Source: an uncultured Actinomycetota bacterium
GTDB lineage: Bacteria; Actinomycetota; Actinomycetes; Mycobacteriales; Nakamurellaceae
Direction of reading: 5' to 3'
DNA: 24,000 nt
Assembly: GCA_963695045.1 (NCBI GenBank)
Contig: CAVOFW010000002.1
Coordinates: 1-24,000, forward strand
Shown: positions 1,221 to 8,869 of the stretch, in pieces
How the letters are laid out: the number at the start of each line of letters is the position of its first letter
How positions within the stretch are numbered: position 1 is the stretch's first letter
Notes under the pieces: model-generated
The model's input: the letters and a program-made list of their open reading frames with translations, nothing else
Databases searched by the model: none
Told to the model about the DNA's origin: nothing
Made by a program: the position numbers and the translations under genes

Positions 1221-1499
1221 TCACCGCGGCAGCGGCCCGTACAGCAGGACTCCGGTGGCGGAGACCATCGCCCCGAGACCGGCGACCGCGATGATCACCC
1301 CGATGACGATCACGGCATGAGTTGCGACCAGGCCGGCGATCAGCAGGACCGCCCCGACCGCGAAACCCGTGATCGCACCGAGCACGCGGCGGCGGCGCCA
1401 CCGCTGCACATTCACCCTGGCCACGAACTGGGGGTCGTCCCTGGTCAGTGACTGCTCGATCTCGTCGAGTCGGCGTTGATCGTCCTCGGACAACGGCAT
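1221..1499 (-). CDS. DUF3040-like small membrane protein
   Basis: 92 aa with ATG at 1499. N-terminus MPLSEDDQRRLDEIEQSLTRDDPQF followed by two hydrophobic helices, the typical actinobacterial DUF3040 layout as I remember it. Confidence 0.75.
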   Translation of the reverse strand: MPLSEDDQRRLDEIEQSLTRDDPQFVARVNVQRWRRRRVLGAITGFAVGAVLLIAGLVATHAVIVIGVIIAVAGLGAMVSATGVLLYGPLPR

Positions 1500-1712
1500 G
1501 CTCGTCCCACCGTCCCTTCAGGGTCCGGCTCCGTGGGGTGTCCTCCACGCTACGCGGAGTGCGTCCTCCGCGAGCATGGTTCGCGTGTCGGTCAGACCTC
1601 ACCACGCCGACCCGCGGCGCGTCTCCGCAGTGGATCCCCACACCGAACACCCGCGTCGCGGTCACCGAACGTCGGGATGCACGCCCAGCGCACATCGAAG
1701 ACACTGAAGCCC

Positions 1713-2033
1713 ATGACGAGCACTCCGGAGGGCTCCCAACGTCGGCTGACCCTGTCCACCAATGACAGGAAGATCGCCGGTGTGTGCGGCGGATTGGCCG
1801 AGTACTTCAACACCGACGCCACACTCGTGCGGCTGATCTTCGTGGTGCTGATCATGCTCGGCGGCATTGGCGTGATCATCTACCTCATCGCCTGGATCAT
1901 CATGCCCACTGCCGCGTTGATGTCGGCCGACGACATGCTCGGGCGATTGCAGAAGCTCGGCGAACTCAAGAAGGACGGGTTGCTCACCGAGGCCGAGTTC
2001 CAGACGCAGAAGGCGAAGATCCTCGCAGGTTGA
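1713..2033 (+). CDS. PspC-domain membrane protein with a C-terminal SHOCT-like motif
   Basis: PspC signature DRKIAGVCGGLAEYFNTDATLVRLIFVV plus a TM helix. The tail LGRLQKLGELKKDGLLTEAEFQTQKAKIL looks SHOCT-like. I chose ATG 1713; ATG 1677 is an alternative. The rest of the 185-aa track ORF upstream is Arg/Pro-rich junk. Confidence 0.8.
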   Translation: MTSTPEGSQRRLTLSTNDRKIAGVCGGLAEYFNTDATLVRLIFVVLIMLGGIGVIIYLIAWIIMPTAALMSADDMLGRLQKLGELKKDGLLTEAEFQTQKAKILAG

Positions 2034-2105
2034 TCGGCCTCGCGATCCGAAGGGTTCGAGGTTGGGATGATTTTCGCGTCGGCGTCGTCCTGCTGTACAT
2101 GGGCG

Positions 2106-2978
2106 TCATCTGCCTTGGTTGTCGTCGAGGCTGCCCGCCGGTGGCACAGAGAACATTGCCGGAGTTGTCGTGCTACGAATCTTTTCTGACGAGCCGATTT
2201 GGGCGGTCGCTACGCTGACCCGGTTGGTGATCGCCAACTGCCGGTTCGTCACGCCCAGCAGCGTCTTGAGTTGGTCGTGGTTCAGCTCGTCGCACACCCA
2301 GTCCCAGTGCAGGGACACCCAACTTCCGGGCCGGACCGTGCCGGCCAGCGACAAGCCGTTGGCCGCAAGTCGCGCGCGCTCGGGACGCGGTGCTCCCAAC
2401 CGGAGCTCGCTGCCGCTCCAGGTGAGCGGCCGGCATTGCACCCCGACGACCTCGCCTTCGACGGAATCGACCCGACCCCACCGGATACGGCAGCGGTCGA
2501 GCACCCGGAGCGCTGCCTCAGCGCCGGTGCGCCGCAGCACCCCGATCCACGGGTAGATGGTGAAAACATGAAAGCTGTGGTTCGCCAACGGCTCCGGTCC
2601 GGACCCTGAGGTCAGCGCCGGCCAGTCCGCGCCGAGCTGGCTGGCAAACGTCGACCGAACAGTGTTCGCGAAATGTGCTGGATCGCCGGCCCGGAGCAGG
2701 TCGTTGCCGACCCAGTAGGCCTCCACCACCCGTCGATCCATGACCGAATCCGAACCGGCAACGTCGGCCAGATACTCGAGGTAGGGCCACGCGCCGTCGA
2801 ACGCTCTGGCCCGCTCGACCATGTCCAACCCAGGTGTCGGCGCGTCGAGATCTCCTTGCTGGTGGGCGAACTCCAACAGGTCTCCGCCGTTCCCCGATCC
2901 GCAATAACCCAACTCGTTGGGCGGGTAGGCGTATCGCGCGAACATCGCCGCACCGTCGTCGGCGGGCCCCGTTGCCAT
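2106..2978 (-). CDS. Conserved hypothetical protein, last gene of the hyp/hhy operon (possibly the DUF6390 family; unverified)
   Basis: 290 aa with ATG at 2978, directly downstream of hypE. N-terminal FARYAYPPNELGYCGSG motif. The C-terminal third weakly resembles a HypC OB-fold (GSWVSLHWDWVCDELNHDQL versus Hyp[21 protein letters not shown]). It converges on the PspC gene. Confidence 0.75.
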   Translation of the reverse strand: MATGPADDGAAMFARYAYPPNELGYCGSGNGGDLLEFAHQQGDLDAPTPGLDMVERARAFDGAWPYLEYLADVAGSDSVMDRRVVEAYWVGNDLLRAGDPAHFANTVRSTFASQLGADWPALTSGSGPEPLANHSFHVFTIYPWIGVLRRTGAEAALRVLDRCRIRWGRVDSVEGEVVGVQCRPLTWSGSELRLGAPRPERARLAANGLSLAGTVRPGSWVSLHWDWVCDELNHDQLKTLLGVTNRQLAITNRVSVATAQIGSSEKIRSTTTPAMFSVPPAGSLDDNQGR

Positions 2979-3026
2979 CAGCAGATCCTGGCCATCAGCA
3001 GATCCTGGGCATCAGCAGATCCTGGG
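2976..3026 (-). repeat. 17-bp perfect-phase tandem triplication spanning the hypE stop / downstream start junction
   Basis: Plus strand: catcagcagatcctggc (2976-2992), catcagcagatcctggg (2993-3009), catcagcagatcctggg (3010-3026). Each unit on the minus strand carries TGATG, an overlapping stop and start. Confidence 0.95.
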
Positions 3027-4109
3027 CAACTGCTCGCCGATCGGCAGATCAACGACCCGGTTGCCGCCCAGCGCGGTCCGGGCCACCACCATGCCGCGAT
3101 GGTCGGCGCCACATCTCCCGATGACCACCGCCTCTTTGCCGTATTCGTGACCCTGCATGGCGGAAAGCACCTTCTCCGCGTCGCGCTCTGGGACGAACGC
3201 GATCAGCTTGCCCTCGTTGGCTACCTGCAGCGGGTCGAGGCCCAGCAGGCTGCAGGCGTTCCCGACCATCTCCGGAATCGGAAGATCCCGTTCCACCAGA
3301 TCGATCCCGACATCGGCAGCCTTGGCGATCTCGTTCAGCGATGCGGACACCCCGCCCCGGGTCGGATCGCGCAGCACATGGATGTCGGCGCCGGTGGCGA
3401 TCATCGCTTGCACGAGGCCATTCAGCGGGGCGCTGTCCGTCTCGACGGTGGTGCCGAATTCAAGTCCCTCCCGGCAGCTCATGATGGCAACACCGTGCAC
3501 GCCGATTGGACCGCTGATCATCACCACGTCCCCGACAGCCGCTCTGCTGGGCCGGATGTCGACACCGTCGTCGATGACCCCGATGCCCGCCGTATTGATG
3601 AAGACCCCGTCGCCGTGACCGCTATCCACCACCTTGGTGTCGCCGGTGACCAGCCGCACACCAGCGGCGGCGGCGGCATGGCCGATGGCGGTGGCGATCC
3701 GGTTGATCTCGGCCAGCGGGGTGCCCTCCTCCAGGATGAACGCGGTCGACAGGTACAGCGGGCGAGCGCCGGACATGGCCAGGTCGTTCACGGTTCCGTT
3801 GACCGCGAGATCTCCGATATTGCCGCCGGGGAAGAACATCGGCTTCACCACGAACGAGTCAGTGGAGAACGCCAGCCGACCGCCGGGGGTGGGCAGTACC
3901 GCCGAATCACCCAGCTCCGCCGTCGACGCGTCGCCGAAGGCCGGGAGGAACAGATGCTCGATCAGTTCGCCGGACATGGCACCGCCGCCACCGTGGCCCA
4001 TCACAATCGTGGGGGAGTCCCGGAGCGGGACCGGGCACGCCCAGGCGCTGAAATCAACAGCGTCGGCTCCGCCGGTGGTCGTTTCGGCGGTGGTCAGTTG
4101 CTCAGGCAT
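3012..4109 (-). CDS. hypE: Hydrogenase maturation protein HypE (carbamoyl dehydratase)
   Basis: 365 aa. Contains IVMGHGGGG and AIR-synthase-like repeats, and ends in the family-defining PRIC. The start overlaps the hypD stop by 8 nt. Confidence 0.95.
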
Positions 4110-8263: not shown

Positions 8264-8869
8264 CTACCGTTCCCCCGATCCGGTAGCACCGGCCAGGCGA
8301 TCGCCGGTCCGATGCTCCGCCAGTTGGCCGTTGGTCAGAAGGTCATGGGTCAGCAGGTCATGGGTCAGCAGGTCAAGGACGGCCGCAACGGCGGGCTCCA
8401 CCGCGTCCGACACCGCGGGGGAAAGCCCGATCCCCTCTCGCACGTCGGCGCCTTCACAGCCGATCAGCACGGTCGGCGGTAACTCACCGCCCAGCGAGCC
8501 AACAGCGGCCAGAACCGAGTGCGGTGCCATGCCGTGCGGGTCAGGTGCCGCGTTATCCACTGTTGCAGGGTCGATTTCGATGATGTGCACCGCGCCCGGC
8601 CGTCCGCGGGACGGCAGCAGGTCGATCAGGAGCAGGTGATCCCAGCCGTCCAGCAGGTCGTACGCCAGGTGCATGCTGCGGATCCCGTAGTCGGTGACCG
8701 TGACGTGCGCCGGAATATCGCGGCCGGCCAAATGCCTGGCAACCTCCGAACCGAAGCCGTCGTCACCGAGAAACAGGTTGCCGACACCGGCCACCAGGAC
8801 CCGCCCCACCGGGCCGACGGTCCTGGTGGCCTGCGACGTCGCCGGCTCGGCGGATTCCGTCACGGTCAC
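8264..8869 (-). CDS. [NiFe]-hydrogenase maturation endopeptidase (HupD/HybD/HyaD family)
   Basis: VLVAGVGNLFLGDDGFG metal-ligand motif, LLLIDLL, and the His-containing PHGMAPH. The GTG start at 8869 overlaps the stop of the 39-aa ORF (GTGA). Confidence 0.85.
   Translation of the reverse strand: MTVTESAEPATSQATRTVGPVGRVLVAGVGNLFLGDDGFGSEVARHLAGRDIPAHVTVTDYGIRSMHLAYDLLDGWDHLLLIDLLPSRGRPGAVHIIEIDPATVDNAAPDPHGMAPHSVLAAVGSLGGELPPTVLIGCEGADVREGIGLSPAVSDAVEPAVAAVLDLLTHDLLTHDLLTNGQLAEHRTGDRLAGATGSGER
8330..8374 (-). repeat. In-frame 15-bp tandem repeat inside the endopeptidase gene (DLLTH-DLLTH-DLLTN)
   Basis: Plus-strand atgggtcagcaggtc occurs at 8345-8359 and 8360-8374 (identical). A diverged copy gttggtcagaaggtc lies at 8330-8344. 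Confidence 0.85.

What the first reader, a model, noticed from the sequence alone, without database searches (positions are those of the whole stretch)
2976..3026. 17-bp triplication at the hypE stop / next-gene start creates a relay of PRIC mini-ORFs
**Seen in the sequence.**
- The minus strand reads ...TTG CCCAGGATCTGCTGATG CCCAGGATCTGCTGATG GCCAGGATCTGCTGATG GCAACG...
- Each 17-bp unit holds the last four HypE codons (PRIC), the TGA, and an ATG sharing the A of that TGA.
- The hypE stop (3012-3014) therefore overlaps the ATG of a 5-codon ORF, MPRIC (3012 to 2995).
- That ORF's stop overlaps the ATG of a second one, MARIC (2995 to 2978).
- The second stop overlaps the ATG of the 290-aa gene (2978).
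- The period is 17, not a multiple of 3. Because the unit carries its own stop/start overlap, any copy number preserves coupling.

**Established knowledge.**
- The C-terminal Cys of the PRIC motif is the carbamoylated and dehydrated residue of HypE.
- Mycobacterial MIRU repeats sit at operon junctions in a similar way, with overlapping stop and start codons.

**Inference.**
- This may be a micro-VNTR that tunes translation of the last operon gene.
- A more speculative reading is that it yields pentapeptides mimicking the HypE tail.
Basis: partly seen in the sequence, partly recalled or inferred. Interest (0 to 1): 0.6.

Follow-up and report, generated by a model that had tools for sequence, protein, structure and literature searches.

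The report
Triplicated stop/start junction after hypE
A 17-base stretch holding the end of the hydrogenase-maturation gene hypE, its stop codon and the next gene's start has been copied twice in tandem in this species, leaving two five-codon reading frames between the genes; it is real and stably inherited, but it looks like a tolerated duplication rather than a proven regulatory device.

Summary
Window 2976-3028 is a 17-bp x 3.1 tandem array. HypE ends PRIC-TGA. MPRIC* and MARIC* follow through TGATG overlaps, and the third TGATG starts a DUF6390 gene.

It is not an assembly artefact. Two contigs from other strains (98.0% and 99.3% identical) carry the identical array.

Copy number differs between species. 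At least 12 relatives and the paralogous locus in this genome have one unit, the sister species has two, and this species has three.

An independent 29-bp triplication of a hypE-TGATG-hypA junction exists in a Solirubrobacteraceae MAG.

The relay follows from arithmetic. Any duplicate of a TGATG junction with period = 2 (mod 3) closes each small frame on the next start.

In this genome such periods are not enriched among arrays that copy a start codon (4 of 20), and the three reliable strains show no copy-number variation. I found no evidence for tuning or for peptide function.

Best reading: a near-neutral local duplication that survives because both flanking genes and their coupling signals stay intact. 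It is MIRU-like in architecture but is not a MIRU.

This scan has noted the same class before on other DNA.

The parts
3012..4109 (-). hypE (365 aa), ending ...EQLPRIC, with its stop TGA at 3014-3012
   Evidence: AIRS/AIRS_C domains. TIGR02124 hypE equivalog, 437 bits, matched to the last profile residue. Translation.
2976..3028 (-). 17-bp tandem array, 3.1 copies. The units are 3026-3010, 3009-2993 and 2992-2976. Each unit holds the codons for P-R-I-C, then TGA, with the next ATG sharing the A of that TGA.
   Evidence: TRF, sequence, pattern matches. The identical array occurs in L187 and L189.
2995..3012 (-). Mini-ORF 1, MPRIC*. Its ATG shares the A of the hypE TGA, and its TGA shares its A with the next ATG.
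   Evidence: Translation.
2978..2995 (-). Mini-ORF 2, MARIC*. Its TGA shares its A with the ATG of the DUF6390 gene.
   Evidence: Translation.
3020..3023 (-). SD-like AGGA of unit 1, 7 nt before the ATG at 3012. It is formed by the rare Arg codon AGG plus the A of ATC.
   Evidence: Sequence. AGG makes up 6.3% of Arg codons in this genome.
3003..3006 (-). SD-like AGGA of unit 2, 7 nt before the ATG at 2995.
   Evidence: Sequence.
2986..2989 (-). SD-like AGGA of unit 3, 7 nt before the DUF6390 ATG at 2978.
   Evidence: Sequence.
2106..2978 (-). DUF6390 gene (290 aa), the last gene of the hyp operon. The next gene is convergent (PspC-like, 1476-2033 on the + strand).
   Evidence: PF19927, E = 5e-85. 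No NCBIfam or PDB match. In every relative examined the ATG in the TGATG is in frame with the conserved FARYAYPPN block.

Best explanation
This is a local, lineage-specific tandem duplication of the translational-coupling junction between hypE and the DUF6390 gene.

History. The ancestral state is one unit, CCCAGGATCTGCTGATG, in which the hypE stop overlaps the DUF6390 start. One 17-bp duplication produced the 2-unit state seen in the sister species. A second duplication produced the 3-unit state that is fixed in this species.

Why it survives:
- The first unit keeps HypE, with its essential C-terminal Cys and its stop, unchanged.
- The last unit keeps the DUF6390 start and its AGGA-N7-ATG ribosome-binding site unchanged.
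- Because 17 = 2 mod 3, each internal ATG reads the copied PRIC codons in their original frame and stops exactly on the next TGATG.

Inferred mechanism. Ribosomes finishing HypE can reinitiate stepwise through two 5-codon ORFs, or load afresh at any unit's SD, and still reach DUF6390.

The net effect on DUF6390 output is most likely small, and if anything a modest reduction. I read the array as a near-neutral passenger, not a selected regulator.

Shown: the anatomy, the 1/2/3 distribution, fixation across strains, and independent recurrence. Inferred: the ribosome relay and near-neutrality.
For: - Anatomy.
- A single unit occurs in the paralogous locus of the same genome and in G022, G015, G071, G070, G026, L190, L191-193 and L194. 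L191-193 carry exactly the same 17-mer once.
- Two units occur in G076 and in a second assembly of that species, L186.
- Three identical units occur in the window, L187 (99.3% identical) and L189 (98.0% identical).
- Among 401 genomes sampled across the order, only G000 and G076 carry a duplicated tail. The reversed-pattern control gave 0.
- The third unit's G is explained without a point mutation, by duplicating the 17-mer shifted one base in register. This is read directly from the sequence.
- An independent event of the same type: G430/L087 has a 29-bp x 3.0 array at hypE-TGATG-hypA. It gives MRGLLPRIC* and MHAPFPPIR* before HypA, while its relatives G434 and G445 have the single junction.
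- Three other closed relays made by tandem repeats exist in this genome: C8:517961, C8:371379 and C6:480060.
- No phase selection is visible here. The 20 arrays that copy a start codon have periods splitting 10/6/4 for 0/1/2 mod 3.
- Formal relays are common (78 against 547 direct overlaps).
- Literature: short ORFs can deliver ribosomes to a coupled gene, and MIRU ORFs couple at -4 (PMC12548453). An SD inside the upstream ORF usually matters for termination-reinitiation (PMC6728339).
Against: - The array is identical in three strains and has persisted through speciation-level divergence. G000 and G076 differ at 39 of 200 third-codon positions in hypE. A useless insert might be expected to decay or collapse.
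- The extra unit is 17/17 identical between the two species. This would have P of about 0.02 if it were inherited and fully neutral. The figure is overstated, because in G076 that unit is the DUF6390 ribosome-binding site and is constrained anyway. With about 8 free sites, P is about 0.17.
- The older 29-bp array in L087 has diverged about 25% between units, yet every unit still keeps ATG, an open frame and TGATG. The chance of this is roughly 0.17 per unit.
- Both independent relay arrays have period = 2 mod 3 (1/9 by chance).
- Each of these points is individually weak. Together they leave room for selection on the relay.
Confidence: 0.6

Rival explanations
1. The array is a selected translational rheostat. 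Each added unit (SD + 5-codon ORF + stop/start overlap) changes how many ribosomes that finish HypE, or that load de novo, reach DUF6390. Copy number would then set the HypE:DUF6390 ratio, and 1 to 2 to 3 was an adaptive series.
For: - The 1/2/3 series across closely related species, with each state reproduced in independent assemblies.
- Fixation of the 3-unit state in three strains.
- Every unit has AGGA 7 nt before its ATG, using an Arg codon that makes up only 6.3% of Arg codons.
- A convergent triplication at hypE-hypA in L087 keeps all the overlaps despite about 25% divergence between units.
- Short coupled ORFs are known to deliver ribosomes (PMC12548453).
Against: - There is no expression or ribosome data.
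- There is no within-species variation, as a tunable locus would show.
- Predicted SD/ATG accessibility barely changes with copy number: 0.43, 0.35 and 0.32.
- There is no excess of period = 2 mod 3 among start-copying arrays in this genome.
- The AGG codon is already present in the single-copy outgroups L191-193 and G026, so it predates the array.
Confidence: 0.27
2. The mini-ORFs make functional pentapeptides (MPRIC, MARIC) that mimic the HypE C-terminus and interfere with, or buffer, HypF/HypE cyanide-ligand chemistry.
For: The peptides reproduce the PRIC/RIC tail ending in Cys. In L087 the first mini-ORF also ends in LPRIC.
Against: - The PRIC reading is an automatic consequence of period = 2 mod 3 and is not evidence of selection.
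- The second mini-ORF of L087 has drifted to ...PPIR and has lost the Cys.
- The second peptide in the window already differs (MARIC).
- Five-residue peptides are generally unstable, and very short ORFs are prone to peptidyl-tRNA drop-off. This is established knowledge, not tested here.
- Most hypE loci lack any such ORF.
Confidence: 0.02
3. The array is an assembly or sequencing artefact. The true sequence has one unit.
For: One noisy contig (L188) has indels in the array. One contig (L185) starts at the array with variant bases.
Against: - Identical 51-bp arrays occur in three different strains and assemblies that differ elsewhere by 0.7-2%.
- The sister species has a clean 2-unit state in two assemblies.
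- A 51-bp array is far shorter than a read or the k=141 contigs.
- The L185 mismatches cluster at both contig ends, which is the pattern of contig-end errors.
Confidence: 0.01
4. The 3-unit state serves recoding. Three units place hypE and DUF6390 in the same frame with a single UGA between them, so stop-codon read-through would make a HypE-DUF6390 fusion.
For: The hypE frame reads ...PRIC*CPGSADGQDLLMATGPADDG with only one stop. The same arithmetic holds for the 29-bp x 3 array of L087.
Against: - It follows from arithmetic for any triplication with period = 2 mod 3.
- HypE needs a free C-terminal Cys (established knowledge), so a fusion would be inactive as HypE.
- No read-through signal was sought or seen.
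- The sister species, with two units, is out of frame.
Confidence: 0.02

Closest known systems
MIRUs (mycobacterial interspersed repetitive units; Supply et al. 1997, as summarised in PMC12548453)
   Same: Both are tandem units sitting at a junction between co-oriented operon genes. Each unit reads as a small ORF whose stop overlaps the next start, so insertion or expansion does not uncouple the downstream gene. Copy number differs between related genomes.
   Different: - The unit here is 17 bp, against roughly 40-100 bp for MIRUs.
- It is not a dispersed or mobile family: the unit occurs only at this locus.
- It is made from the locus's own sequence, namely the last four hypE codons, the stop and the next start.
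- The overlap is TGATG (-1), not ATGA (-4).
- No strain-level polymorphism was seen in three strains.
Termination-reinitiation coupling at overlapping stop/start codons (TGATG/ATGA gene pairs; Huber et al. 2019, PMC6728339)
   Same: It uses the same TGATG overlap, with an SD-like motif inside the upstream reading frame at about 7 nt. The single-unit relatives are textbook examples.
   Different: Here three such junctions lie in series, separated by 5-codon ORFs. Coupling was not measured.
Synthetic bicistronic-design translational couplers (a short leader ORF that carries the SD and overlaps the start of the gene of interest; cited in PMC12548453 as ref. 78)
   Same: Each unit is a short ORF that contains the SD for the next start and ends on a stop/start overlap.
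   Different: This one is natural, repeated, and preceded by a real gene rather than a 5' UTR.
Slipped-strand contingency loci (phase-variable simple-sequence repeats)
   Same: Both are short tandem repeats generated by slippage or duplication, with a period that is not a multiple of three.
   Different: Changes in copy number here cannot frameshift either gene. The array is not hypervariable among the strains sampled.

Membership tests
MIRU / MIRU-VNTR | Dispersed family: the same unit is found at many loci in the genome | tested here: not met
   The 16-mer core, allowing 1 mismatch, occurs only 3 times in the 6.95-Mb genome, all at this locus.
MIRU / MIRU-VNTR | The unit contains an ORF whose stop and start overlap those of the flanking genes | tested here: met
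   There are three consecutive TGATG overlaps.
MIRU / MIRU-VNTR | Copy number is polymorphic among strains of one species | tested here: not met
   The window, L187 (99.3% identical) and L189 (98.0% identical) share the identical 3-unit array. Only three reliable strains were available. L185 and L188 are unreliable. Copy number does differ between species (1, 2 and 3).
MIRU / MIRU-VNTR | Unit length of roughly 40-100 bp | tested here: not met
   The unit is 17 bp. The MIRU size range is from my own knowledge of Supply et al. 1997.
Termination-reinitiation coupled gene pair | The stop codon of the upstream ORF overlaps the start codon of the downstream ORF (TGATG or ATGA) | tested here: met
   The same overlap is conserved in all relatives where DUF6390 follows hypE, except that G098 has a 4-codon bridge ORF.
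Termination-reinitiation coupled gene pair | An SD-like motif lies inside the upstream ORF at a suitable spacing | tested here: met
   AGGA lies 7 nt before each of the three ATGs. The 3' end of the 16S rRNA was not found by my pattern in the assembly, so the anti-SD sequence is assumed.
Termination-reinitiation coupled gene pair | Translation of the downstream gene depends on translation of the upstream ORF | not testable with these tools
   This needs reporter fusions carrying premature stops.
Phase-variable contingency locus | A change in repeat number switches a reading frame or a promoter on or off | tested here: not met
   Any copy number leaves the HypE and DUF6390 ORFs intact, as seen directly in the 1-, 2- and 3-unit natural alleles.
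HypE (TIGR02124) | A full-length match above the curated cutoff, with a C-terminal PRIC motif | tested here: met
   437 bits against a cutoff of 251.6, residues 35-365 matched to profile positions 2-332 of 332. The PRIC* ending is shown.
DUF6390 (PF19927) | A Pfam match above the gathering score | tested here: met
   285 bits against a cutoff of 25.

The most novel reading that the evidence does not exclude
Stepwise expansion of the coupling junction (1, 2 and 3 units in successive lineages) is adaptive. Each unit would be a self-contained SD + mini-ORF + stop/start module that meters ribosome hand-over from HypE to the last operon gene. The same solution would then have arisen convergently at hypE-hypA in Solirubrobacteraceae. 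That would make junction copy number a heritable dial for subunit or chaperone stoichiometry in hydrogenase maturation.
Probability: 0.15. Interest if true: 0.6.

Novelty: new variant of a known kind. Interest (0 to 1): 0.3.

Why it matters
The locus gives a clean natural allelic series in near-identical sequence context: 1, 2 and 3 copies of a complete SD/stop/start module. There is also an independent replicate at another hypE junction.

That series is a ready-made substrate for measuring how efficiently bacterial ribosomes reinitiate through chained very short ORFs.

It also illustrates a simple rule: duplications of an overlapping junction with period = 2 mod 3 preserve themselves. This rule explains why MIRU-like architectures can arise locally without any mobile element.

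For hydrogenase biology, it matters only if DUF6390 dosage proves important. No paper in the searched library mentions DUF6390.

Tried and rejected
- The first genome contigs pattern was too loose.
- The tight metagenome pattern gave 4 loci, of which only L157 is a HypE tail. That one has a ~30-bp period and no coupled downstream gene.
- Exact-protein look-ups of the window's own HypE and DUF6390 found nothing. The route through the 90% cluster of DUF6390 worked.
- RNA structure: predicted accessibility of the last SD/ATG changes little with copy number, and the whole region is predicted to be structured. This was indecisive.
- Phase selection: arrays in this genome that span a stop-to-start junction (n = 10, periods split 5/2/3 for 0/1/2 mod 3) or that copy a start codon (n = 20, split 10/6/4) show no excess of period = 2 mod 3. 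I therefore do not claim selection.
- The L185 variant array would break the relay. I rejected it as evidence of polymorphism because its mismatches cluster at both contig ends.
- The L188 array has indels, but that assembly is frameshift-ridden throughout.
- The P of about 0.02 for the identical extra unit between species was downgraded, because that unit is the DUF6390 ribosome-binding site in G076.
- No promoter or terminator consensus was found in 1400-3200.
- The organism could not be named. The genus holds 77 species genomes in the collection, GC is about 68.7%, and DUF6390 homologues at 50-62% identity are labelled Nakamurella, Saccharopolyspora or Actinomycetota.

Full report
**1. The observation**

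Window 2976-3028 is a tandem array of period 17 with 3.1 copies, 97% matches and TRF score 99. Read on the minus strand, the three units occupy 3026-3010, 3009-2993 and 2992-2976. Units 1 and 2 are identical. Unit 3 differs only in its first base, G for C.

- HypE (3012-4109) ends ...EQLPRIC, with its TGA at 3014-3012.
- The A of that TGA begins ATG CCC AGG ATC TGC TGA, giving MPRIC*.
- The A of that TGA begins ATG GCC AGG ATC TGC TGA, giving MARIC*.
- The A of that TGA begins the 290-aa ORF 2106-2978.

The flanking genes are well identified:
- HypE is a TIGR02124 equivalog (437 bits against a cutoff of 252). The match reaches the last profile position, so the first TGA is the authentic stop.
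- The downstream ORF is PF19927 DUF6390 (E = 5e-85). It has no NCBIfam or PDB relative, and no paper in the library mentions it.
- The operon on the minus strand reads: HycI-like protease, HypC, HypF, HypC, HypD, HypE, DUF6390.
- The next gene is convergent and PspC-like, so DUF6390 is the last cistron.

Each unit also contains AGGA 7 nt before its ATG. It is formed by the Arg codon AGG, which accounts for only 6.3% of Arg codons in this genome.

**2. It is real**

I therefore went through the protein collection. The DUF6390 protein belongs to a 90%-identity cluster with members on other contigs.

| Contig | Source | Identity to window | Array |
|---|---|---|---|
| L187 | ENA ERZ27397450 | 99.3% | exact 51-bp array |
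| L189 | GCA_047520505.1 | 98.0% | exact 51-bp array |
| L188 | ENA ERZ25039594 | 98.4% | three units with indels; assembly is frameshift-ridden throughout |
| L185 | JGI 3300067034 | 99.5% | starts at the array with three variant bases |

L187 and L189 come, L188, and L185. The nine mismatches in L185 cluster at both contig ends, so I treat its variants as contig-end noise. Three concordant, non-identical strains exclude an assembly artefact.

**3. Where it came from**

- The paralogous hypE-DUF6390 junction elsewhere in this genome (C7) has a single unit with the TGATG overlap. So do the junctions of G022, G015, G071, G070 and G026, and five further metagenomic contigs (L190-L194).
- L191-193 carry exactly the same 17-mer once, so both the unit and its AGG codon are ancestral.
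- The nearest species, G076, is about 90% identical in DNA and differs at 39 of 200 third-codon positions in hypE. It has two identical units. A second assembly of that species, L186, agrees.
- In a sample of 401 genomes across the order, only G000 and G076 carry a duplicated HypE tail. The reversed-pattern control gave zero.

The history is therefore 1, then 2, then 3 units. The G at the head of the third unit needs no point mutation. Duplicating the 17-mer shifted one base in register within the 2-unit allele reproduces the window sequence exactly. An ordinary slippage followed by a C-to-G change is equally possible.

**4. Why the relay exists**

In TGATG the downstream frame is offset by +2 from the upstream frame. 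A copy of the junction placed p bases downstream is therefore read by the first ATG in the original hypE frame, and ends on the copied TGA, if and only if p = 2 mod 3.

This is why the mini-ORFs spell PRIC. The architecture is an arithmetic consequence of the period, not in itself a sign of design. A period = 0 mod 3 would instead extend DUF6390 at its N-terminus. A period = 1 mod 3 would break the hand-over.

**5. Recurrence**

- A Solirubrobacteraceae MAG (L087 = G430) has a 29-bp x 3.0 array with 77% matches. It reads hypE ...LPRIC*, TGATG, MRGLLPRIC*, TGATG, MHAPFPPIR*, TGATG, then MHELSLS.... The last is HypA (PF01155, E = 7e-29).
- Its relatives G434 and G445 have the plain hypE-TGATG-hypA junction. 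This is an independent and older triplication, again with period = 2 mod 3.
- A metagenome contig (L157) has a HypE-tail duplication with a period of about 30 and no coupled downstream gene.
- G098 has a 4-codon bridge ORF (MSHR*) between hypE and DUF6390 without an obvious repeat.

**6. How unusual it is in this genome**

- The genome is rich in repeats: 1,116 arrays at score 50 or above, 268 of them with a period that is not a multiple of three.
- Only 35 of those non-3n arrays have a period of at least 7, at least 90% matches and at least 2.5 copies. The hypE array is the only good one at a called same-strand junction.
- Relays in the purely formal sense are common: 69 junctions with one mini-ORF and 9 with two, against 547 direct overlaps. 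Many of these are certainly artefacts of start-codon ambiguity.
- Three other relays clearly made by tandem repeats exist: C8:517961 (11 bp), C8:371379 (17 bp) and C6:480060 (14 bp).
- Among the 20 arrays that copy the start codon of a long ORF, periods split 10/6/4 for 0/1/2 mod 3. Among the 10 arrays that span a stop-to-start junction they split 5/2/3. I therefore see no phase selection in this genome.

**7. Function**

Published work shows three relevant things:
- Overlapping stop/start pairs are translationally coupled by termination-reinitiation.
- An SD within the upstream ORF usually contributes to that coupling (PMC6728339).
- Short ORFs can serve only to deliver ribosomes. [quoted passage not shown]

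By analogy, ribosomes leaving HypE can step through two 5-codon ORFs, or load at any of the three SD-ATG modules. This is inference.

Predicted unpaired probability of the last SD-ATG segment is 0.43, 0.35 and 0.32 for 1, 2 and 3 units. That trend is small and indecisive.

Several points leave room for selection:
- The array is fixed in three strains.
- The extra unit is 17/17 identical between the two species. This carries little weight, because in G076 that unit is the DUF6390 ribosome-binding site.
- The diverged L087 array retains every overlap.

None of these is strong. Nothing supports a peptide function. The second L087 mini-ORF has already lost its Cys.

One curiosity is that three units of period = 2 mod 3 put hypE and DUF6390 in the same frame with a single UGA between them. 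The same holds in L087. This too is arithmetic.

**8. Comparison with known systems**

The architecture works like a MIRU and like a synthetic bicistronic coupler. It is not a MIRU: it has a 17-bp unit, occurs at a single locus, is made from the locus's own sequence, and showed no strain-level polymorphism. It is not a contingency locus either, because no copy number can frameshift either gene.

Earlier notes of this scan describe the same class on other genomes, mostly high-GC Actinomycetota: locally generated junction duplications with period = 2 mod 3. Some of those notes claim phase selection. I did not find it here.

**9. Verdict**

The most likely reading is a near-neutral tandem duplication that survives because its period and content keep both genes and their coupling signals intact (confidence about 0.6). 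A selected dosage role for DUF6390 remains possible (about 0.27).

Noticed in passing
window 8333-8375: An in-frame 15-bp x 2.9 tandem repeat (96% matches) lies inside the HycI-like maturation protease gene 8264-8869. An earlier first-reader note describes it as DLLTH x2 + DLLTN.
   Followed up: no
window 2976-3014 (and L087:867-954): With three units, hypE and DUF6390 lie in the same reading frame, separated by a single TGA and no other stop. The same is true for hypE and hypA in the 29-bp x 3 array of L087. It follows arithmetically from a triplication with period = 2 mod 3.
   Followed up: partly
G000:C7:189083-189704 (L023/L167): There is a second, paralogous hypE-DUF6390 junction in the same genome (76% identical in DNA). 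It has a single TGATG unit and a CGG Arg codon, so the genome holds two hyp clusters, each with DUF6390.
   Followed up: partly
G000:C8:517961-517999; C8:371379-371416; C6:480060-480108: Three further closed mini-ORF relays in the same genome are made by tandem repeats of 11, 17 and 14 bp that copy a gene start. An example is GTG AGC GAA CGA TGA / ATG AGC GAA CGA TGA / ATG AGC GAA CTG....
   Followed up: partly
L163 (G098:C2, about 9600): At the same hypE-DUF6390 junction this relative has a 4-codon bridge ORF. It reads TGATG AGC CAC CGA TGA (MSHR*), followed by an ATGA overlap into DUF6390 (MTQVAVARPGEVLFARYAYPPN). There is no obvious tandem repeat.
   Followed up: no
L157 (Ga0209169_10083437), minus strand, about 1044-1090: The HypE tail ...GDPLPRIC* is followed by repeated copies of the CCGCGTATCTGCTGA segment with a period of about 30. 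They encode only a 20-aa ORF, and there is no coupled downstream gene.
   Followed up: no
G000 whole genome: The genome has an unusually high load of short tandem repeats: 1,116 non-overlapping TRF arrays at score 50 or above in 6.95 Mb. Periods of 15, 18 and 21 bp dominate, and these mostly lie inside genes.
   Followed up: partly
L185 (JGI 3300067034 contig, 1995 bp): This contig breaks exactly at the left edge of the array. Three of its 9 mismatches to the window lie in its first 50 nt and three more in its last 75 nt. This is probably contig-end noise, but the break could reflect strain heterogeneity at the repeat.
   Followed up: partly
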